NCBI GenBank assembly: GCA_027031765.1
Contig: JALVPN010000049.1
Span: 1 to 17,547 of the forward strand
Direction of reading: 5' to 3'
Length of the DNA stretch: 17,547 nt
Source: Promethearchaeota archaeon
GTDB lineage: Archaea > Asgardarchaeota > Thorarchaeia > Thorarchaeales > Thorarchaeaceae
The position numbers and the translations under genes were made by a program. The notes under the pieces are model-generated. The model saw nothing but the letters and a program-made list of their open reading frames with translations. It was not told the origin of the DNA and ran no database searches. Numbering within the stretch: the first letter of the stretch is position 1; every line of letters starts with the position of its first letter. Below, one piece after another: positions 3,230-8,189 of the stretch.

Positions 3230-4705
3230 TCAGAACACATCTCGCGACAGGAATGTACTGCCCACGCGCAGGTATGGCCCAGCTACGACGAGCCACCCGC
3301 GGTTGATGGCCATCTGGACGAGCACAATCAGCTTCCCGAGTGGCATGCCCTCGAAAGCGGGGATTTCGGCCCGCTGGACTCGTCTGGCGAAGTAGTAGCG
3401 GCCCCTAGTGATGATGCTGGGATGAGAGCGTAGGTATGACTCCAGCGCGTCCCACTGTTCTCCTGTGAACTCCTCGTCCTTCTCCGGGTCAAAGTACTCG
3501 AACTCGCCTGCTGCTGGAAAGATGACCCGCCTGCCGCCACGCATCATGACCATGACCCTGCCCTCACCCCCAGCGGCTGCGATGAGCGAGTCAAAGGAGT
3601 CAAACCCGGAGTGTTCGATACGCCAGCCCCCGCCGAGCTCTGTCATGCGGCCAATCACAGCCCGGTCAGTGGGCATGATCATGTCGTCACGCAGGCTCTC
3701 AAGAGCGCGGTCGAGCAGTGCAAGGGCCTGCACCTTCCTGTTGTCATGGGGGACGCGGCGGTCGTGTGTCTTGAGCGAGACATAGTTCTGGAGGCCGTCT
3801 GCACGGACGGTCACGATGCCGGCGGCTTGGGCCTCGAGCACGTATTCTTTGAGCCTGGAAACGCCGAGGGCCTTCAGTGGGTCTGGGAGGTGCTCCCTGA
3901 GCCTGATGCCAACAAGTGCCAGTTCAGCCTCGGCATAGCCCTCTTCGTGCAGGTCATCCAGGACTCTGACGAGGGGTTCGAAGCGGTCTTCCAGTGAGAC
4001 CTGCTCCTCAGCGGCCGCGCCCTCCTCGCGCAGCATGACGACTGTAGTGTCATCGCTCCGCTGGACAATGACCCAGCCGTCGTCCTCAGCACTCTTGAGG
4101 TAGTCGTTGAGGTTGTCGAAGGTGGAGGTCTGCCGCCAGTTCGGGTACTTCTCATCGAGGTAGTCGGCGACGGTCTCGCGAGTGGGCTGGGCCTGGCCCT
4201 TGTCTGCGAGCTCCCGCAGGGTGACCAGGAGCGGCTCGTAGCGCAGGGCCTTGCCCTCTTCACGGACGCCGGTGCCCATGATGTCGACCCATTCGAGCAC
4301 AAAGTCAGCGATGTCAATGAGGTCCTTGTTCGCACCGACCGGTGGCAGCACGAGGCCCACCCTATAGCCCCTGAGTTTCAGCCGTGAGAGTGCATAGACA
4401 TAGTCGATGTCACCGGCCACCAGCACAATCGTCTGTGGGGGTGGGTTGTCAAATGCGAACATCACCATGTCGGTGACAATCATGAAGTCGGCCACATCCT
4501 TGCGGCCCGTGTGTGGCGTGTCGATGAGGTGCACACCTGACCGTTGCAGGCCTACGCGGAGCAGCTGAGGGAACTCTGACAGCTCACCGTAGGCATAGAC
4601 CTGACGGATAGCCCCACGCTCCTGCAGGTGGCTGCGCAGCCGGTCAATCACGAGGGTACCTCGCATGCCCTTTGGTGGCGGACAGTTCTCAATGTCCCAG
4701 AACAC
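3230..4705 (-). CDS. NYN-domain ribonuclease (limkain-b1/MARF1-type) with LOTUS/OST-HTH-like repeats and an OHA-like C-terminal domain; start may extend to 4726
   Basis: (V)FWDIENC, GRKDVAD and VAGDID NYN acidic motifs; winged-helix-like repeats at about aa 155-226, 241-312 and 326-397; C-terminal RGRY...LGKLIVLVQMAI motif. Confidence 0.88.
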   Translation of the reverse strand: MFWDIENCPPPKGMRGTLVIDRLRSHLQERGAIRQVYAYGELSEFPQLLRVGLQRSGVHLIDTPHTGRKDVADFMIVTDMVMFAFDNPPPQTIVLVAGDIDYVYALSRLKLRGYRVGLVLPPVGANKDLIDIADFVLEWVDIMGTGVREEGKALRYEPLLVTLRELADKGQAQPTRETVADYLDEKYPNWRQTSTFDNLNDYLKSAEDDGWVIVQRSDDTTVVMLREEGAAAEEQVSLEDRFEPLVRVLDDLHEEGYAEAELALVGIRLREHLPDPLKALGVSRLKEYVLEAQAAGIVTVRADGLQNYVSLKTHDRRVPHDNRKVQALALLDRALESLRDDMIMPTDRAVIGRMTELGGGWRIEHSGFDSFDSLIAAAGGEGRVMVMMRGGRRVIFPAAGEFEYFDPEKDEEFTGEQWDALESYLRSHPSIITRGRYYFARRVQRAEIPAFEGMPLGKLIVLVQMAINRGWLVVAGPYLRVGSTFLSRDVF

Positions 4706-4874
4706 AGCGACCGATGCAGACTCTATGGTTGGTCACCCCAGCCTCTCTTGCAGGCAGCATGCGTGCACTACCACTAATAGTTTGCCCGTTGGTACCCCGC
4801 TGGTGTGAGAGAGCGGCAGCCTGCGTGGTGCTGTCGATGCGGGCTCAGGAGATGGCACGGTGACAGGTGGCGCC

Positions 4875-5987
4875 TCAGCCACTGCGGCGCAGCTTTGTCT
4901 CAAGGGCGCTGAGCGGCGTGTCCACCATCCAGTCGTGGTCGGCACGCCACGCCTGCTGGCTGGTGTCATAGTTCTTGGGGTAGAACCAGTACATGCAGCT
5001 GTGCTGGCCCACGGTGTCCACTGTGAAGACACGCAGCCTCGGCAGGTGCTGCCACAGCGTGTAGAACAGGCTGTGCTCATGTGACGGCGGCATCCGACCC
5101 CAGACCATTATGTCACCACCTTCGAGGAGGTCGATGGCCAGCGGAAAGGGTGGCACCGACGGCGACGAGAAGGCATTGAAGACACGACCGCAGGTGGCCT
5201 CGTCGACGCCCGGTGCATACAGGAGCTTTGTCGACACGACATCGAACTGTGCGCGGTCAATCTGAGCCCTCACAGACTCTATGAACTCGCGCATGATCCG
5301 GAGGACCTTCCTGCTTGTAGTGCTCTGGGAGAGTGACAGCTCCCGCTGGAGCTCGCTCTGTGGGATGTTGGCATTGGCCGTGAGCGCCCTCAGTATCTCA
5401 AGGTCCACCTCGCTGAGAGAGAGGCTGTCCGGGCGCGGTGATGGGCGGGGAGGGAGTGTCGGGTCTGCACTCGCAATCGCCCTGCCCCACTCTTCCCAGG
5501 AGTATTCCCAGGTGCGTGTCTTGAGGTCGAACGCCTCGAGGTTCGTCGGGGAGTGGGCCCTGTGGCCGGTACTGGCCCGGACGACGGTGCTCTCTGCCAG
5601 GCCAAGATCCGAGAGGCCCTGTAGGAACTCTTCGAGCAGCGCCGTGGAGCCCGGGGGGACGTCGAACTGTGAGAAGAGGCCGGGGAATGGGCCGTACACG
5701 CGCGCACGGTAATGGGTGTACGGGTGCAGGTCGCATGCCACCTCGAGGCCACGCAGCTGTTCCTCGGTACCCGCACCCATGAGCACGACATGCCGCTGGA
5801 GGCCGAGGGCGGAGGGGTCAAACACGGCCACAGGGTCAGACAGTACCCCTTCCTTCCGGAGCTTCTTCAGGTGTCTGTCAGCAGTGATCCAGCTGACACC
5901 AGCCCTGCGTGCGAGCTCCTGCGTCGTTATCGTCGGCTGCAGCTCGACGAGGTGGAGGATGCGGATGTCGATGTCCGAGAGGCGCAT
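4875..5987 (-). CDS. Tandem (double-HTH) Lrp/AsnC-like transcriptional regulator
   Basis: Two AsnC-type HTH segments (LSDIDIRILHLVELQPTITTQELARRAGVSWITADRHLKKL; LSEVDLEILRALTANANIPQSELQRELSLSQSTTSRKVLRI), each followed by a putative effector/ferredoxin-like region. Confidence 0.8.
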   Translation of the reverse strand: MRLSDIDIRILHLVELQPTITTQELARRAGVSWITADRHLKKLRKEGVLSDPVAVFDPSALGLQRHVVLMGAGTEEQLRGLEVACDLHPYTHYRARVYGPFPGLFSQFDVPPGSTALLEEFLQGLSDLGLAESTVVRASTGHRAHSPTNLEAFDLKTRTWEYSWEEWGRAIASADPTLPPRPSPRPDSLSLSEVDLEILRALTANANIPQSELQRELSLSQSTTSRKVLRIMREFIESVRAQIDRAQFDVVSTKLLYAPGVDEATCGRVFNAFSSPSVPPFPLAIDLLEGGDIMVWGRMPPSHEHSLFYTLWQHLPRLRVFTVDTVGQHSCMYWFYPKNYDTSQQAWRADHDWMVDTPLSALETKLRRSG

Positions 5988-6069
5988 GTCCGGTCGACCT
6001 CATATTCCCTGACTGTTGGTGGCCCTGTCTTACACCAGGTCAAGACCGGGGGCAGAGGGCCAACACAGA

Positions 6070-6561
6070 CTACGCAGCTACCACCAGTGCAGCACACGGG
6101 TCAGAGTCGCCAGAGCCACCCGGTGGGTCGAACTCGTAGGCCACCGAGCCGTCCGCTACGCCGCCAACATGGGACACTATGTGTGCATGGAACACGTAGT
6201 CGCCGGCCTCAACAGCATGGTTATAGAAGTGCATCGTGCACTCCAGCAGCGAGAGCCGCGTGTTGACAAGGTATGTGTACGAGTACTCGTTGCCAGACGG
6301 TAGCACCAGCGACAGCGTCAGCTCAAGGCTGTAGCGCTCTTTCCCGCTCAGCTGTATCTCAAAGTATGCTACGACATCGTCCTCCAGGCCGTCATCGTCA
6401 GCATCGAGGTACTGAGCACTAAGGATGGTAAGAGTGACACACACCTGCTTGTTGGTGCTCCGTACCGATACCTCAGAGGCGGCCACGGGGACGGTCACAG
6501 AGGCCATCGTCGCCAGCACAAGGCCCACAAGCAAGAGTACAGTGGCCGTGTTCCTCGGCAT
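6070..6561 (-). CDS. Secreted hypothetical protein (163 aa) with a Dx[DN]xDG-type Ca-binding motif
   Basis: Start re-set to ATG 6561 (MPRNTATVLLLVGLVLATMASVTVPVAA, signal peptide), with a TATA box 30 nt upstream; YLDADDDGLEDD motif, beta-rich body, C-terminal FDPPGG. Confidence 0.75.
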   Translation of the reverse strand: MPRNTATVLLLVGLVLATMASVTVPVAASEVSVRSTNKQVCVTLTILSAQYLDADDDGLEDDVVAYFEIQLSGKERYSLELTLSLVLPSGNEYSYTYLVNTRLSLLECTMHFYNHAVEAGDYVFHAHIVSHVGGVADGSVAYEFDPPGGSGDSDPCAALVVAA

Positions 6562-6590
6562 TTCAATCGGGCCCCCTACCGCATGACACC

Positions 6591-6598
6591 TATTTAAA
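6591..6598 (-). promoter_or_regulatory. TATA box for the secreted hypothetical protein
   Basis: TTTAAATA on the minus strand, 30 nt upstream of ATG 6561. Confidence 0.6.
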
Positions 6599-7055
6599 CT
6601 ATCGGCTGAGAGGGTTAAGAGCCCACCCACACATGGCCCACCAAAGGGCCACCGGAGCCCACAGTACATGCAGTCGCAACACATGAGACGCATACACTGT
6701 CCGTGCACCCAGACCCAGGTGCAGTCAGACCAAATCACAGGGATACCCGTGATGCGCCGTCCATCGCTGCCACTACCCGGACAAGGGTCTCTGTACAGAT
6801 CCGGCCTCCAGCAACAGACCGGATGACTGCTGTGTGGCAATACCAGCACCACGGGAGGGCTGGCCTATCTCGGTCTAGGTCGGGCCCTCACACAAATGGA
6901 CCTCCACCCGGTTGTTGCCGGTCGACAGCAGCAGGTAGGAGCAGGCAGAAATGGGAAACGAACGACGGGTATGTGGGCAAGTCCGACGCCGGCACCGGTG
7001 CGCATGCTCTCTGGGTGAAGTCTATAGTAAAAGGTATCTGGTGTTAATAGCCGAC

Positions 7056-7069
7056 CCAAAGTTTATTAG
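7056..7069 (+). promoter_or_regulatory. BRE/TATA box for the S8 protease
   Basis: CCAAAG followed by TTTATTAG, about 70 nt upstream of the proposed TTG start. Confidence 0.55.
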
Positions 7070-7139
7070 GAGCGGCGCGGATGTGGCGCCGCAAGGTGGT
7101 GGCGGTCTGTCGCCACCCCATCCATTACAGGTGAAGAAG

Positions 7140-8189
7140 TTGCGAAGGAAAAGCTCCACCGGCCTGATGCTGCTATTGCTGCTGGTCGCGGCATTCCCAA
7201 TAGTGGTGTCAGTGACCGCTGCCGACCGTCATGATGGTAGTTTTGTGCTGGTTGGCCCTCCCCCGTGGGTGGGTGGTGGCGGTGATGATGACACCACATA
7301 TCCGTGGCAGGACGACGACCCTGAGACACCATGGGGTATTGAGCGTGTCTTCAACGGTCAGTACTATGGCGACCAGTACACCACATCGGTCCAGGTGGCA
7401 ATACTTGACACGGGAGTTGACCTGGACCACCCCGACCTGGCAGCCAACATCGTATGGGCGGTAGACGCGACTGGTGGCAGGAGTGCGGACGACAAGAACG
7501 GTCATGGTACCCACTGTGCCGGCACCATTGGTGCGGTCAGGGACAACGCCGGTGTCGTCGGCATGTATGCCAACGTTGAGATCTACGCCATCAAGGTGCT
7601 GGGCAACGGTGGTCGTGGTGACTGGGCCGACCTTGTGAACGGGATATACCTTGCCTGCCAGGGCCCTGATGGGGTGGAGGGCACAGCAGATGACGCCGAT
7701 GTCATCAGCATGAGCCTTGGAGGCTCCTCGGCCCCGCAGGAGGTGCACGATGCCATCATCCATGCCTACAACCTCGGCATTGTGATTGTGGCGGCAGCAG
7801 GGAACGAGGGCGATGGCGATGCGTCAACGGACGAGATCTCGTACCCCGCAGCATACCCCGAAGTGATTGCTGTGGGCGCGACAGACAAGGACGACACCAT
7901 CGCATCATTCTCTAACAGCGGCCCGTACATCGAGGTCGCTGCACCCGGGGTCAACATCTACAGCACGTACAAGGGTGGTGGCTATGATACTCTCTCCGGC
8001 ACATCAATGGCCTGTCCTCACGTGGCCGGACTCGTCGCACTGATAATCGCGGTCCATGGCAAGATGCCCGTGGGCACGTTTGACGACACCGGTCAGGAGA
8101 CAGTCCGCGGCTACCTCCACAGTACGGCCCTTGACCTCGGCCCATCAGGATGGGACCCGGCATACGGCTATGGCCTGGTCCAGGCATGA
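7140..8189 (+). CDS. Secreted subtilisin-family S8 serine protease, Tk-subtilisin-like; start TTG 7140 (alternative GTG 7131)
   Basis: Catalytic motifs ILDTG, NGHGTH and GTSMACPH; oxyanion-hole AAGNEG; AGGTGA RBS at 7129-7134; signal peptide MRRKSSTGLMLLLLLVAAFPIVVSVTA; C-terminal PVGTFDD...TVRGYLHSTALDLGPSGWDPAYGYGLVQA closely resembles Thermococcus Tk-subtilisin as recalled. Confidence 0.95.
   Translation: MRRKSSTGLMLLLLLVAAFPIVVSVTAADRHDGSFVLVGPPPWVGGGGDDDTTYPWQDDDPETPWGIERVFNGQYYGDQYTTSVQVAILDTGVDLDHPDLAANIVWAVDATGGRSADDKNGHGTHCAGTIGAVRDNAGVVGMYANVEIYAIKVLGNGGRGDWADLVNGIYLACQGPDGVEGTADDADVISMSLGGSSAPQEVHDAIIHAYNLGIVIVAAAGNEGDGDASTDEISYPAAYPEVIAVGATDKDDTIASFSNSGPYIEVAAPGVNIYSTYKGGGYDTLSGTSMACPHVAGLVALIIAVHGKMPVGTFDDTGQETVRGYLHSTALDLGPSGWDPAYGYGLVQA

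What the first reader, a model, noticed from the sequence alone, without database searches (positions are those of the whole stretch)
3266..3730. C-terminal module resembling the eukaryotic OST-HTH-associated (OHA) domain
Seen: LLDRALESLRDDMIMPTDRAVIGRMTE...FEYFDPEKDEEFTGEQWDALESYL...RGRYYFARRVQRAEIPAFEGMPLGKLIVLVQMAINRGWL. Knowledge, recalled and unverified: OHA-region proteins of fungi and alveolates carry a pattern like SLyxDxixP...RlxE, then DP...W..f..yL, then GRYxxA..L...sLGxl.hlVQlAi. I know this domain only from eukaryotes, and its function is unknown. Inference: a NYN + LOTUS + OHA fusion in an archaeon would place the whole RNA-processing architecture before eukaryogenesis, or indicate eukaryote-to-archaeon transfer.
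Basis: partly seen in the sequence, partly recalled or inferred. Interest (0 to 1): 0.75.

Follow-up and report, generated by a model that had tools for sequence, protein, structure and literature searches.

The report
Archaeal RNase with eukaryote-type OHA tail
An Asgard (Thorarchaeota) archaeon encodes an RNA-cutting enzyme whose tail is a two-part winged-helix module (including the "OHA" domain) so far discussed only in eukaryotes, and the same tail also sits on a different nuclease in Thermoplasmata archaea, so the module is not eukaryote-only, though which side had it first stays open.

Summary
Confirmed. Window 3230-4705 (-) encodes a 491-aa protein. Residues 430-473 match Pfam OHA above its curated cut-off (36.4 vs 26.1 bits). 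It models as a rigid pair (pLDDT 97.5, pTM 0.89) and superposes on predicted eukaryotic OHA proteins (TM 0.80-0.82).

Upstream lie a MARF1-type NYN nuclease with its acidic active-site positions kept, and two further winged-helix repeats.

The host is Thorarchaeota by the names of its homologues. The gene is rare: 6 of 400 Asgard species genomes and 0 of 401 Pseudomonadota. It sits in a variable spot with no conserved neighbours.

New here: a family labelled Thermoplasmata carries the same three-winged-helix tail on a Zc3h12a-type NYN head (hhalign 99.65%, E 3.9e-25). So OHA exists outside Asgard.

In the module tree, Asgard and Thermoplasmata are each one clade, next to nuclease-bearing eukaryotic forms. 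An archaea|eukaryote split is not rejected (AU p 0.68), so direction is unresolved.

Most likely role: a substrate- or partner-targeting tail of an Mg-dependent endoribonuclease (inferred).

The scan noted this gene before (e1-5455595), and a like one on other DNA (e1-925225).

The parts
3230..4705 (-). Whole gene, 491 aa plus stop. GTG start; an in-frame TGA lies 10 codons upstream.
   Evidence: ORF list and translation. 13 full-length homologues at 36-47% identity.
4271..4705 (-). NYN (PIN-like) nuclease domain of the MARF1/limkain-b1 type, aa 1-145. Acidic positions D4, E41, D73, D99 and N7 are kept.
   Evidence: Pfam NYN E 3e-23. Family profile vs PDB: MARF1 NYN E 3.5e-17, against 0.74 for LabA-like 2qip. 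Foldseek: 6fdl/5yaa TM 0.84-0.86, rmsd 1.8-2.0. Catalytic residues D178/D215/D246/D272 from PMC6217404, mapped by me through the alignment.
4010..4258 (-). Winged-helix repeat 1 (LOTUS-like), aa 150-232; strongly acidic.
   Evidence: AF2 secondary structure. Repeat 1 vs repeat 2: hhalign 98.9%, E 1.9e-17. Net charge -7 here, -3 to -13 in the family.
3770..4000 (-). Winged-helix repeat 2 (LOTUS-like), aa 236-312.
   Evidence: This repeat is also conserved in the Thermoplasmata family.
3506..3742 (-). Winged-helix repeat 3 (DUF7602/DUF7625-equivalent), aa 322-400; first half of the bipartite module.
3260..3493 (-). OHA domain in the wide sense, aa 405-482. The Pfam core is aa 430-473 = nt 3287-3418.
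   Evidence: Pfam OHA 36.4 bits, above the 26.1 cut-off. Genome search places it at 3287-3418. Conserved W418, G435-R436-Y437, A440, L456-G457, Q464. DSSP order H-E-H-H-E-E.

Best explanation
The flagged stretch is the C-terminal targeting tail of a stand-alone archaeal endoribonuclease. It consists of two winged-helix domains, a DUF7602-like one and the OHA domain, that pack into one rigid unit. It is homologous to the DUF7602/DUF7625 + OHA unit of eukaryotic RNA-metabolism proteins. The N-terminal MARF1-type NYN domain would cut single-stranded RNA with Mg2+/Mn2+. The four winged helices, above all the conserved tandem tail, would choose what is cut, either by binding a structured or specific RNA or by docking a partner.

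Shown: the homology, the domain order, the retained catalytic residues, and the confident rigid tandem model.
Inferred: nuclease activity, and RNA or partner recognition by the tail.

My odds: homology with eukaryotic OHA about 0.95; 'targeting tail of an active RNase' about 0.6; direct RNA binding by the tail about 0.4.
For: OHA is above Pfam's cut-off in all 13 family members.

The module models at pLDDT 97.5 and pTM 0.89. It superposes on Atlas models of eukaryotic OHA clusters at TM 0.82 over 153 aa (Ciliophora) and TM 0.80 over 151 aa (Streptophyta 'MARF1-like', NYN+OHA).

In 146 hits of the L3+OHA profile among the 204 proteins then held, the match spans both halves, so the two halves travel together.

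The same three-winged-helix tail is fused to a different PIN-like nuclease head (Zc3h12a type) in a Thermoplasmata-labelled family: hhalign 99.65%, E 3.9e-25, 235 columns. A constant tail on swapped nuclease heads argues that the tail serves nucleases.

In 104 non-archaeal OHA proteins the co-occurring domains are RNA-related: OST-HTH, NYN, RRM, KH, GYF, Cid1 poly(A) polymerase.

The NYN domain is closest to MARF1. MARF1's cleavage needs its four aspartates and its LOTUS array (PMC6217404). The matching positions here are D4, E41, D73 and D99.

Conserved basic or polar positions lie in the helix-turn-helix parts of the tail: R353 (97% K/R), R436 (99%), Y437, Q464, R469 (90% K/R).
Against: No experiment exists for any OHA domain.

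The protein is acidic overall (net -18) and repeat 1 is very acidic, which does not favour unspecific RNA binding.

The OHA half alone was never put through a fold search; all VIA-align rows cover only the first half. Foldseek vs PDB gave no match at E <= 0.001 for the pair.

Sequence profiles do not link OHA to repeats 1-3 (hhalign probability <= 3%).

There is no conserved gene neighbourhood to hint at a pathway.

The start codon leaves no N-terminal lead before strand 1, unlike the homologues.
Confidence: 0.6

Rival explanations
1. The tail is a protein-docking adaptor, not an RNA binder. It would recruit a helicase, an RNase P-like enzyme or a decay complex to the nuclease, as extended LOTUS domains recruit Vasa and as MNU2 is reported to contact PRORP1.
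For: Some LOTUS domains bind proteins rather than RNA (Oskar-Vasa, mentioned in PMC6217404; PMC5458760 listed). Md1 (LOTUS+OHA) sits among RNP-granule proteins, DEAD-box helicases and CCR4-NOT by proximity labelling (PMC9750867). MNU2 is reported to interact with PRORP1 (PMC9181182). The acidic net charge of the winged-helix array fits.
Against: No partner gene is linked in any locus. The conserved R/Y/Q in helix-turn-helix positions fit nucleic-acid contact equally well. MARF1 LOTUS domains bind ssRNA and dsRNA.
Confidence: 0.3
2. Evolutionary rival: the gene is a secondary acquisition. A eukaryotic NYN-WH-OHA gene moved into an Asgard archaeon and then spread laterally among Asgard lineages, so it says nothing about eukaryogenesis.
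For: It is present in only 6 of 400 Asgard species genomes, 4 of 86 in its own family. It lies at a synteny break: the S8-orf6070-HTH block is shared with 13 relatives, but the side holding this gene is different in each. In G019 the gene is 1.2 Mb from the HTH orthologue. Proteins labelled Odin- and Hodarchaeales are 74% identical, against about 45% within Thorarchaeota. Eukaryotic range is broad (Amoebozoa, Ichthyosporea, alveolates, plants, ciliates), so the module was probably in early eukaryotes.
Against: Asgard sequences form one clade (SH-aLRT 94), not nested in any one eukaryotic lineage at the resolution obtained. A tree holding Asgard and Thermoplasmata together against all others is not rejected and is slightly better (delta lnL 6.6, AU p 0.68). 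A second archaeal phylum has the tail on another head. No GC anomaly: gene region 0.61-0.62 against 0.58-0.64 across the window.
Confidence: 0.35
3. The gene is an accessory conflict or defence nuclease (toxin-like RNase) of the flexible genome, rather than a housekeeping RNA-processing factor.
For: Patchy occurrence and a variable genomic location. The Thermoplasmata-labelled counterpart in L014 lies next to a TnpB-like gene and a PIN gene. PIN/NYN nucleases are common in such systems (general knowledge).
Against: No antitoxin-like small partner, no defence genes and no mobile-element genes flank it in the window; the neighbours are an epimerase, a glycosyltransferase and an HTH regulator. 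PADLOC was not searched. Eukaryotic relatives act in mRNA and organellar RNA metabolism.
Confidence: 0.1
4. Artefact: a chance low-complexity match, or a eukaryotic contaminant contig binned into the archaeal genome.
For: Nothing specific. The assembly is a 229-contig draft with 1.38% estimated contamination.
Against: Scores are above the curated cut-off and hold family-wide. The contig carries intron-free archaeal-type genes (glnA, Lrp, subtilase) syntenic with 13 related genomes. Homologues lie on Asgard contigs of 1.55 Mb and 327 kb.
Confidence: 0.02

Closest known systems
Arabidopsis MNU1/MNU2 (mitochondrial NYN nucleases) and the Streptophyta 'MARF1-like' NYN+DUF7625+OHA cluster
   Same: Same order: NYN head, winged-helix/LOTUS repeats, OHA at the end (PMC9181182). 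The predicted tail superposes at TM 0.80, rmsd 2.3, over 151 aa.
   Different: The plant proteins add a WW domain and organelle targeting. Their repeats are recognised by Pfam OST-HTH or DUF7625, while those here are not. No nuclease activity has been shown for MNU1/2 either.
Uncharacterised eukaryotic NYN-WH-OHA proteins: Chromosphaera perkinsii P0028, Clastostelium recurvatum P0021, P0046, P0094
   Same: Full-length similarity: P0021 BLASTP E 4e-34, NYN about 36% identical, tail about 30%. The Asgard domain profiles hit NYN at 1e-53 and repeat 2 at 6e-18 in P0028. They group with the archaeal tails against all other OHA proteins (100*).
   Different: They are longer, with disordered inserts, duplicated DUF7602+OHA units and C-terminal AMPK glycogen-binding modules. 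P0094's gene has an intron and lies beside a split Aquarius gene.
Mammalian MARF1 / limkain b1
   Same: Nearest solved NYN domain (E 3.5e-17; TM 0.84-0.86) with the FWDIENC motif and the acidic tetrad. It is a nuclease plus a winged-helix array that is needed for cleavage.
   Different: MARF1 has RRMs and eight canonical LOTUS domains and is not reported with OHA. One catalytic Asp (D215) is Glu here (alignment).
Plasmodium Md1 and other alveolate LOTUS+OHA proteins
   Same: They carry the DUF7602+OHA unit and have an RNP-granule association.
   Different: They have no nuclease domain. They belong to the other major branch of the module tree.
Thermoplasmata Zc3h12a-type NYN + three winged helices + OHA family (alignment A4; e.g. 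P0098, P0194, P0195)
   Same: The tail is homologous over repeat 2, repeat 3 and OHA (hhalign 99.65%, E 3.9e-25). It is similar in size (437-503 aa) and is also archaeal (exosome, proteasome and SBDS genes on the contig).
   Different: The head is the Regnase/Zc3h12a kind of NYN (PF11977), not PF01936. Pfam OHA is at or below its cut-off (26.4, 21.8 or no hit). It forms a separate clade (100*).
Bacterial LabA-type NYN + OST-HTH proteins
   Same: The general idea of a PIN-like nuclease with a winged-helix RNA-binding tail (PMC5499597 and PMC2848206).
   Different: No OHA. The NYN here is far closer to MARF1 than to LabA-like 2qip (E 3.5e-17 vs 0.74). 0 of 401 Pseudomonadota genomes match the module.

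Membership tests
OHA (Pfam PF14418) | Score above Pfam's gathering cut-off (26.1 bits) | tested here: met
   36.4 bits, E 4.8e-9, aa 430-473, profile positions 7-50 of 77; 38.3 bits in the six-frame search; 13 of 13 homologues match. Only about 57% of the model length is covered.
OHA (Pfam PF14418) | Conserved motif residues (W in helix 1; G-R-Y and A in helix 2; L-G and V-Q-L-A in helix 3) | tested here: met
   W418, G435, R436, Y437, A440, L456, G457 and Q464 are present. These columns are at least 90% conserved in A3 and 77-99% in A5. The common His (74%) is Val461 here.
OHA (Pfam PF14418) | Preceded by a DUF7602/DUF7625-type winged helix, forming one unit | tested here: met
   Pfam DUF7602 is only weak (E 0.046, below cut-off). 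But the joint profile spans both halves in 146 hits, and the two-domain model matches eukaryotic models at TM 0.80-0.82.
OHA (Pfam PF14418) | Winged-helix fold of the OHA half itself | tested here: inconclusive
   The DSSP order H-E-H-H-E-E fits a winged helix.
NYN (PF01936), MARF1/limkain type | Pfam match above cut-off and nearest solved relative is MARF1 | tested here: met
   83.4 bits against a 24.2 cut-off. 5yaa/6fdl E about 4e-17. Foldseek TM 0.84-0.86.
NYN (PF01936), MARF1/limkain type | Four acidic active-site residues (mouse MARF1 D178, D215, D246, D272) plus N181 | tested here: met
   D4, E41 (Glu for Asp), D73, D99 and N7, mapped through the alignment. D73 and D99 are invariant; D4, E6 and N7 are at least 90% conserved. 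Residue list from PMC6217404.
LOTUS / OST-HTH (PF12872) | Sequence match to the Pfam model or to solved LOTUS domains | tested here: not met
   No PF12872 hit at E <= 10 in the protein or in any of 13 homologues at E <= 0.1. No hit in the whole genome. The profile of repeats 1+2 finds no LOTUS chain in the PDB at E <= 10.
LOTUS / OST-HTH (PF12872) | LOTUS-type winged-helix fold | tested here: inconclusive

The most novel reading that the evidence does not exclude
The DUF7602+OHA tandem winged helix, together with a preceding LOTUS-like repeat, is an archaeal invention: a nuclease-targeting tail present in at least Asgard and Thermoplasmata lineages. Eukaryotes inherited the MARF1-type NYN + tail gene from their archaeal ancestor. 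They later detached the tail and reused it in RNP-granule, organellar and germline/sexual-development RNA regulators (MNU1/2, Md1).
Probability: 0.35. Interest if true: 0.7.

Novelty: new member of a known kind. Interest (0 to 1): 0.55.

Why it matters
OHA is a poorly studied domain. The searchable literature holds only a handful of mentions, all eukaryotic (Md1 in Plasmodium, MNU1/2 in plants). No paper in that library links Asgard archaea with OST-HTH, MARF1 or an OHA-bearing NYN nuclease.

Compact, intron-free 440-560-aa archaeal versions have one nuclease head and one tail. They offer a simple system for finding out what the OHA unit binds.

The family would also be a candidate addition to the list of eukaryote-like proteins in Asgard archaea. 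That candidacy is tempered by its rarity, by its position in the flexible genome, and by the Thermoplasmata family found here, which shows the tail is not Asgard-specific.

Tried and rejected
1. The search for related loci with the OHA-only alignments A3 and A2 failed because no stretch was conserved enough. The whole-protein alignment A1 was used instead, and its search patterns lie in the NYN domain.

2. The word-index search with the OHA profile found only the Asgard family. The exhaustive search was needed to reach eukaryotes and Thermoplasmata.

3. Foldseek of the tail against the PDB gave no match at E <= 0.001. Only single winged helices and tandem-WH proteins (SelB, Egalitarian, ESCRT-II) appeared, at E 0.01-0.2 with poor rmsd for the pair.

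4. hhalign of OHA against repeats 1-3 was not significant (probability <= 3%). I therefore do not call OHA a fourth LOTUS repeat.

5. The profile of repeats 1+2 against PDB sequences gave nothing meaningful.

6. The feature-based Atlas search scored 0.84 at best, below the trust level. It was used only as a lead.

7. NCBIfam gave nothing above noise.

8. Looking for conserved neighbours gave none among the nine other Asgard loci compared.

9. The Thermoplasmata genome behind L025 is not held, so that phylum could not be surveyed.

10. Contamination and chance were rejected (see rivals).

11. Not tried: PADLOC scan, RNA-seq evidence, complex prediction.

Full report
**1. The observation**

The finding lies in one ORF, window 3230-4705 on the minus strand. 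It encodes 491 aa from a GTG start. An in-frame TGA lies 10 codons upstream, so the protein begins directly at strand 1, 'FWDIENC'.

Pfam gives three matches:
- NYN, aa 1-134, E 3e-23.
- OHA (PF14418), aa 430-473, 36.4 bits against a curated cut-off of 26.1, E 4.8e-9.
- DUF7602, aa 327-358, weak, E 0.046.

A six-frame search of the 2.95-Mb genome (95% complete) finds OHA once, at 3287-3418.

**2. Anatomy**

AlphaFold2 on 13 homologues gave pLDDT 82.8. It shows:
- an alpha/beta NYN domain (aa 1-145);
- three helix-helix-helix-strand-strand units (aa 152-225, 240-311, 320-397);
- a last unit, aa 415-481, with the order H-E-H-H-E-E.

Repeats 1 and 2 are clearly homologous (hhalign 98.9%, E 1.9e-17). 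Repeat 3 is related to repeat 1 (90.6%, E 1.3e-6). OHA is not linked to any of them by sequence (probability <= 3%).

I refolded the tail, aa 322-482, with a 92-sequence alignment of archaeal and eukaryotic modules. This gave pLDDT 97.5 and pTM 0.89, so the two domains form a fixed pair.

The whole pair matches ESM-Atlas models of two eukaryotic OHA clusters:
- TM 0.82 over 153 aa (Ciliophora; OHA 100%, OST-HTH 40%).
- TM 0.80 over 151 aa (Streptophyta 'MARF1-like'; DUF7625, NYN, OHA).

Against the PDB the pair has no significant match.

Pfam OST-HTH does not recognise any repeat, and a profile of repeats 1+2 finds no solved LOTUS domain. I therefore call them LOTUS-like winged helices, not LOTUS domains.

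**3. The nuclease head**

The family profile hits the MARF1 NYN crystal structures at E about 4e-17, against 0.74 for the bacterial LabA-like 2qip. Foldseek gives TM 0.84-0.86.

Mouse MARF1 needs D178, D215, D246 and D272 for ssRNA cleavage, and it needs its LOTUS array (PMC6217404). Through the alignment these correspond to D4, E41, D73 and D99. All are conserved in the family. An active Mg-dependent RNase is therefore the natural reading, but this is an inference.

**4. Who has it**

Full-length homologues (36-47% identity) are named Thor-, Odin-, Hod-, Heimdall- and Hermodarchaeota. Some lie on contigs of up to 1.55 Mb.

Counts in species-representative genomes:
- Asgard phylum: 6 of 400 carry the module, with the Pfam model or with my wider profile A5.
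- Own family: 4 of 86.
- Pseudomonadota: 0 of 401 with A5. The same query scored E 1e-43 to 1e-49 in two positive genomes.

An exhaustive HMMER search of 1.84 billion representative proteins with the Asgard OHA profile gave only 419 hits at E <= 1e-3. The domain is therefore rare overall and certainly not common in bacteria.

Every hit outside the archaeal families for which a source gave an organism name is eukaryotic:
- Clastostelium and Soliformovum (Amoebozoa).
- Chromosphaera (Ichthyosporea).
- Polykrikos and Gymnodinium.
- Chromera.
- Plasmodium.

One unnamed hit (P0094) sits on a contig with a split Aquarius gene and has an intron in its NYN domain.

Of 104 non-archaeal hits, 101 match Pfam OHA and 39 match DUF7602. 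Partner domains are OST-HTH, NYN, AMPK-CBM, SAM, GYF, RRM, KH and Cid1 poly(A) polymerase.

**5. A second archaeal family**

Five hits of 445-503 aa carried a Zc3h12a-type NYN domain (PF11977), with OHA at or below Pfam's cut-off. Their relatives number 21 clusters. Two of these NCBI names 'Thermoplasmata archaeon'.

One such gene lies on a 92-kb contig beside the exosome Rrp4, SBDS and proteasome-alpha genes, an archaeal signature. Another lies among radical-SAM, TnpB-like and PIN genes.

Profile-profile comparison of the Asgard and Thermoplasmata families gives 99.65% probability, E 3.9e-25, over 235 columns. The aligned region covers repeat 2, repeat 3 and OHA.

So the three-winged-helix tail occurs in two archaeal phyla on two different PIN-like heads. 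I could not check the phylum label independently.

**6. Evolution**

I built a maximum-likelihood tree of the 160-aa module from 92 rows (LG+C20, quick search). It shows:
- A 100%-supported split between two groups. One holds Asgard 16, Thermoplasmata 16, the six nuclease-bearing eukaryotic proteins and three others. The other holds 51 other proteins, which include the named alveolates.
- Asgard as one clade (support 94) and Thermoplasmata as one clade (100).
- No resolved order among these clades and the eukaryotic NYN forms.

Holding Asgard and Thermoplasmata together gives a slightly better likelihood, and the constraint is not rejected (AU p 0.68). A clean archaea|eukaryote split therefore remains possible. 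So does a root inside the eukaryotes.

Several observations argue against simple vertical descent within Asgard:
- The gene is rare.
- The S8-orf6070-HTH block next to it is syntenic in 13 related genomes, but the side that holds this gene differs in each of them.
- In G019 the gene lies 1.2 Mb away from the HTH orthologue.
- The Odin- and Hod-labelled proteins are 74% identical.

No neighbour is conserved among the Asgard loci.

**7. Mechanism**

Best reading: an Mg-dependent endoribonuclease whose winged-helix array, and above all the rigid DUF7602-like+OHA pair, selects the substrate or docks a partner.

For:
- The tail stays constant while the nuclease head is swapped.
- The eukaryotic partner domains are RNA-related.
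- MARF1 depends on its winged-helix array for cleavage.
- R353, R436, Y437, Q464 and R469 are conserved in helix-turn-helix positions.

Against direct RNA binding:
- The net charge is -18 and repeat 1 is very acidic.

The adaptor rival is therefore kept at 0.3.

**8. Known or new**

Each domain family is known, and the order NYN / winged helices / OHA is that of plant MNU1/2. What is new is the phyletic range.

The literature I could search treats OHA only in eukaryotes. Two relevant statements stand in the papers I read: one calls archaeal OST-HTH 'very rare' late transfers from bacteria (PMC2848206), and one calls the MARF1-type NYN.1 cluster eukaryote-specific (PMC5499597). No paper in the library combines Asgard with MARF1 or OST-HTH.

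Public precomputed Pfam tables already tag these archaeal proteins with PF14418.

This scan had already reported the same gene (e1-5455595) and a similar one in another genome (e1-925225). Their conclusions agree with mine. What I add is the Thermoplasmata family, the bipartite and rigid nature of the module, the AU test and the synteny break.

**Verdict**

A real, ordinary-looking but phyletically unexpected member of a known family. Interest is moderate (0.55).

Noticed in passing
L014:8001-9512 and L025:10001-11317 (metagenomic / MAG contigs, not the window): A family of 437-503-aa archaeal proteins labelled Thermoplasmata. It has a Zc3h12a/Regnase-type NYN head (PF11977) and the same LOTUS-like + DUF7602-like + OHA tail. 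This head type is best known from eukaryotic Regnase-1.
   Followed up: partly
L025:7985-8818: An Arrestin_N / Arrestin_C-like protein is encoded two genes upstream of the Thermoplasmata NYN-OHA gene, on a contig that also carries exosome, SBDS and proteasome genes.
   Followed up: no
L012:5751-6716 (Heimdallarchaeota MAG b1.sp2_bin.26): The same MAG that holds a full-length copy (L011) has a second match covering only query aa 1-313. The longest ORF there is 154 aa, so it may be a truncated or decayed paralogue without the OHA tail.
   Followed up: partly
P0012 vs P0016 (proteins from Odinarchaeota- and Hodarchaeales-labelled MAGs): They are 74% identical over the full length, far above the roughly 45% seen among Thorarchaeota copies. 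This suggests lateral transfer between Asgard classes or inconsistent MAG labels.
   Followed up: partly
window 4706-4735 (-), upstream of the GTG start: An in-frame TGA lies 10 codons upstream of the GTG, so the protein starts directly at strand 1 of the NYN fold. Homologues have 6-70 extra N-terminal residues. The start may be leaderless or mis-set.
   Followed up: no
window 4875-8189 and loci L028-L040: The block subtilase (S8) / orf 6070-6852 / double-HTH regulator is syntenic in 13 related Thorarchaeaceae genomes. The DNA on the regulator's other side differs from genome to genome, so it is a local hot spot of gene turnover.
   Followed up: partly
L015:1612-2095 (eukaryotic metagenome contig): The eukaryotic relative P0094 has its NYN domain interrupted after the first 11 matching residues by about 80 nt, presumably an intron. 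It lies beside an Aquarius gene that was called in four pieces.
   Followed up: no
L024 = G009:C1:554433-554624: There is a weak hit (E 6.6e-4) of only the first, winged-helix half of the module inside a 685-aa open frame of a related Thorarchaeaceae genome. It may be a different winged-helix protein.
   Followed up: no
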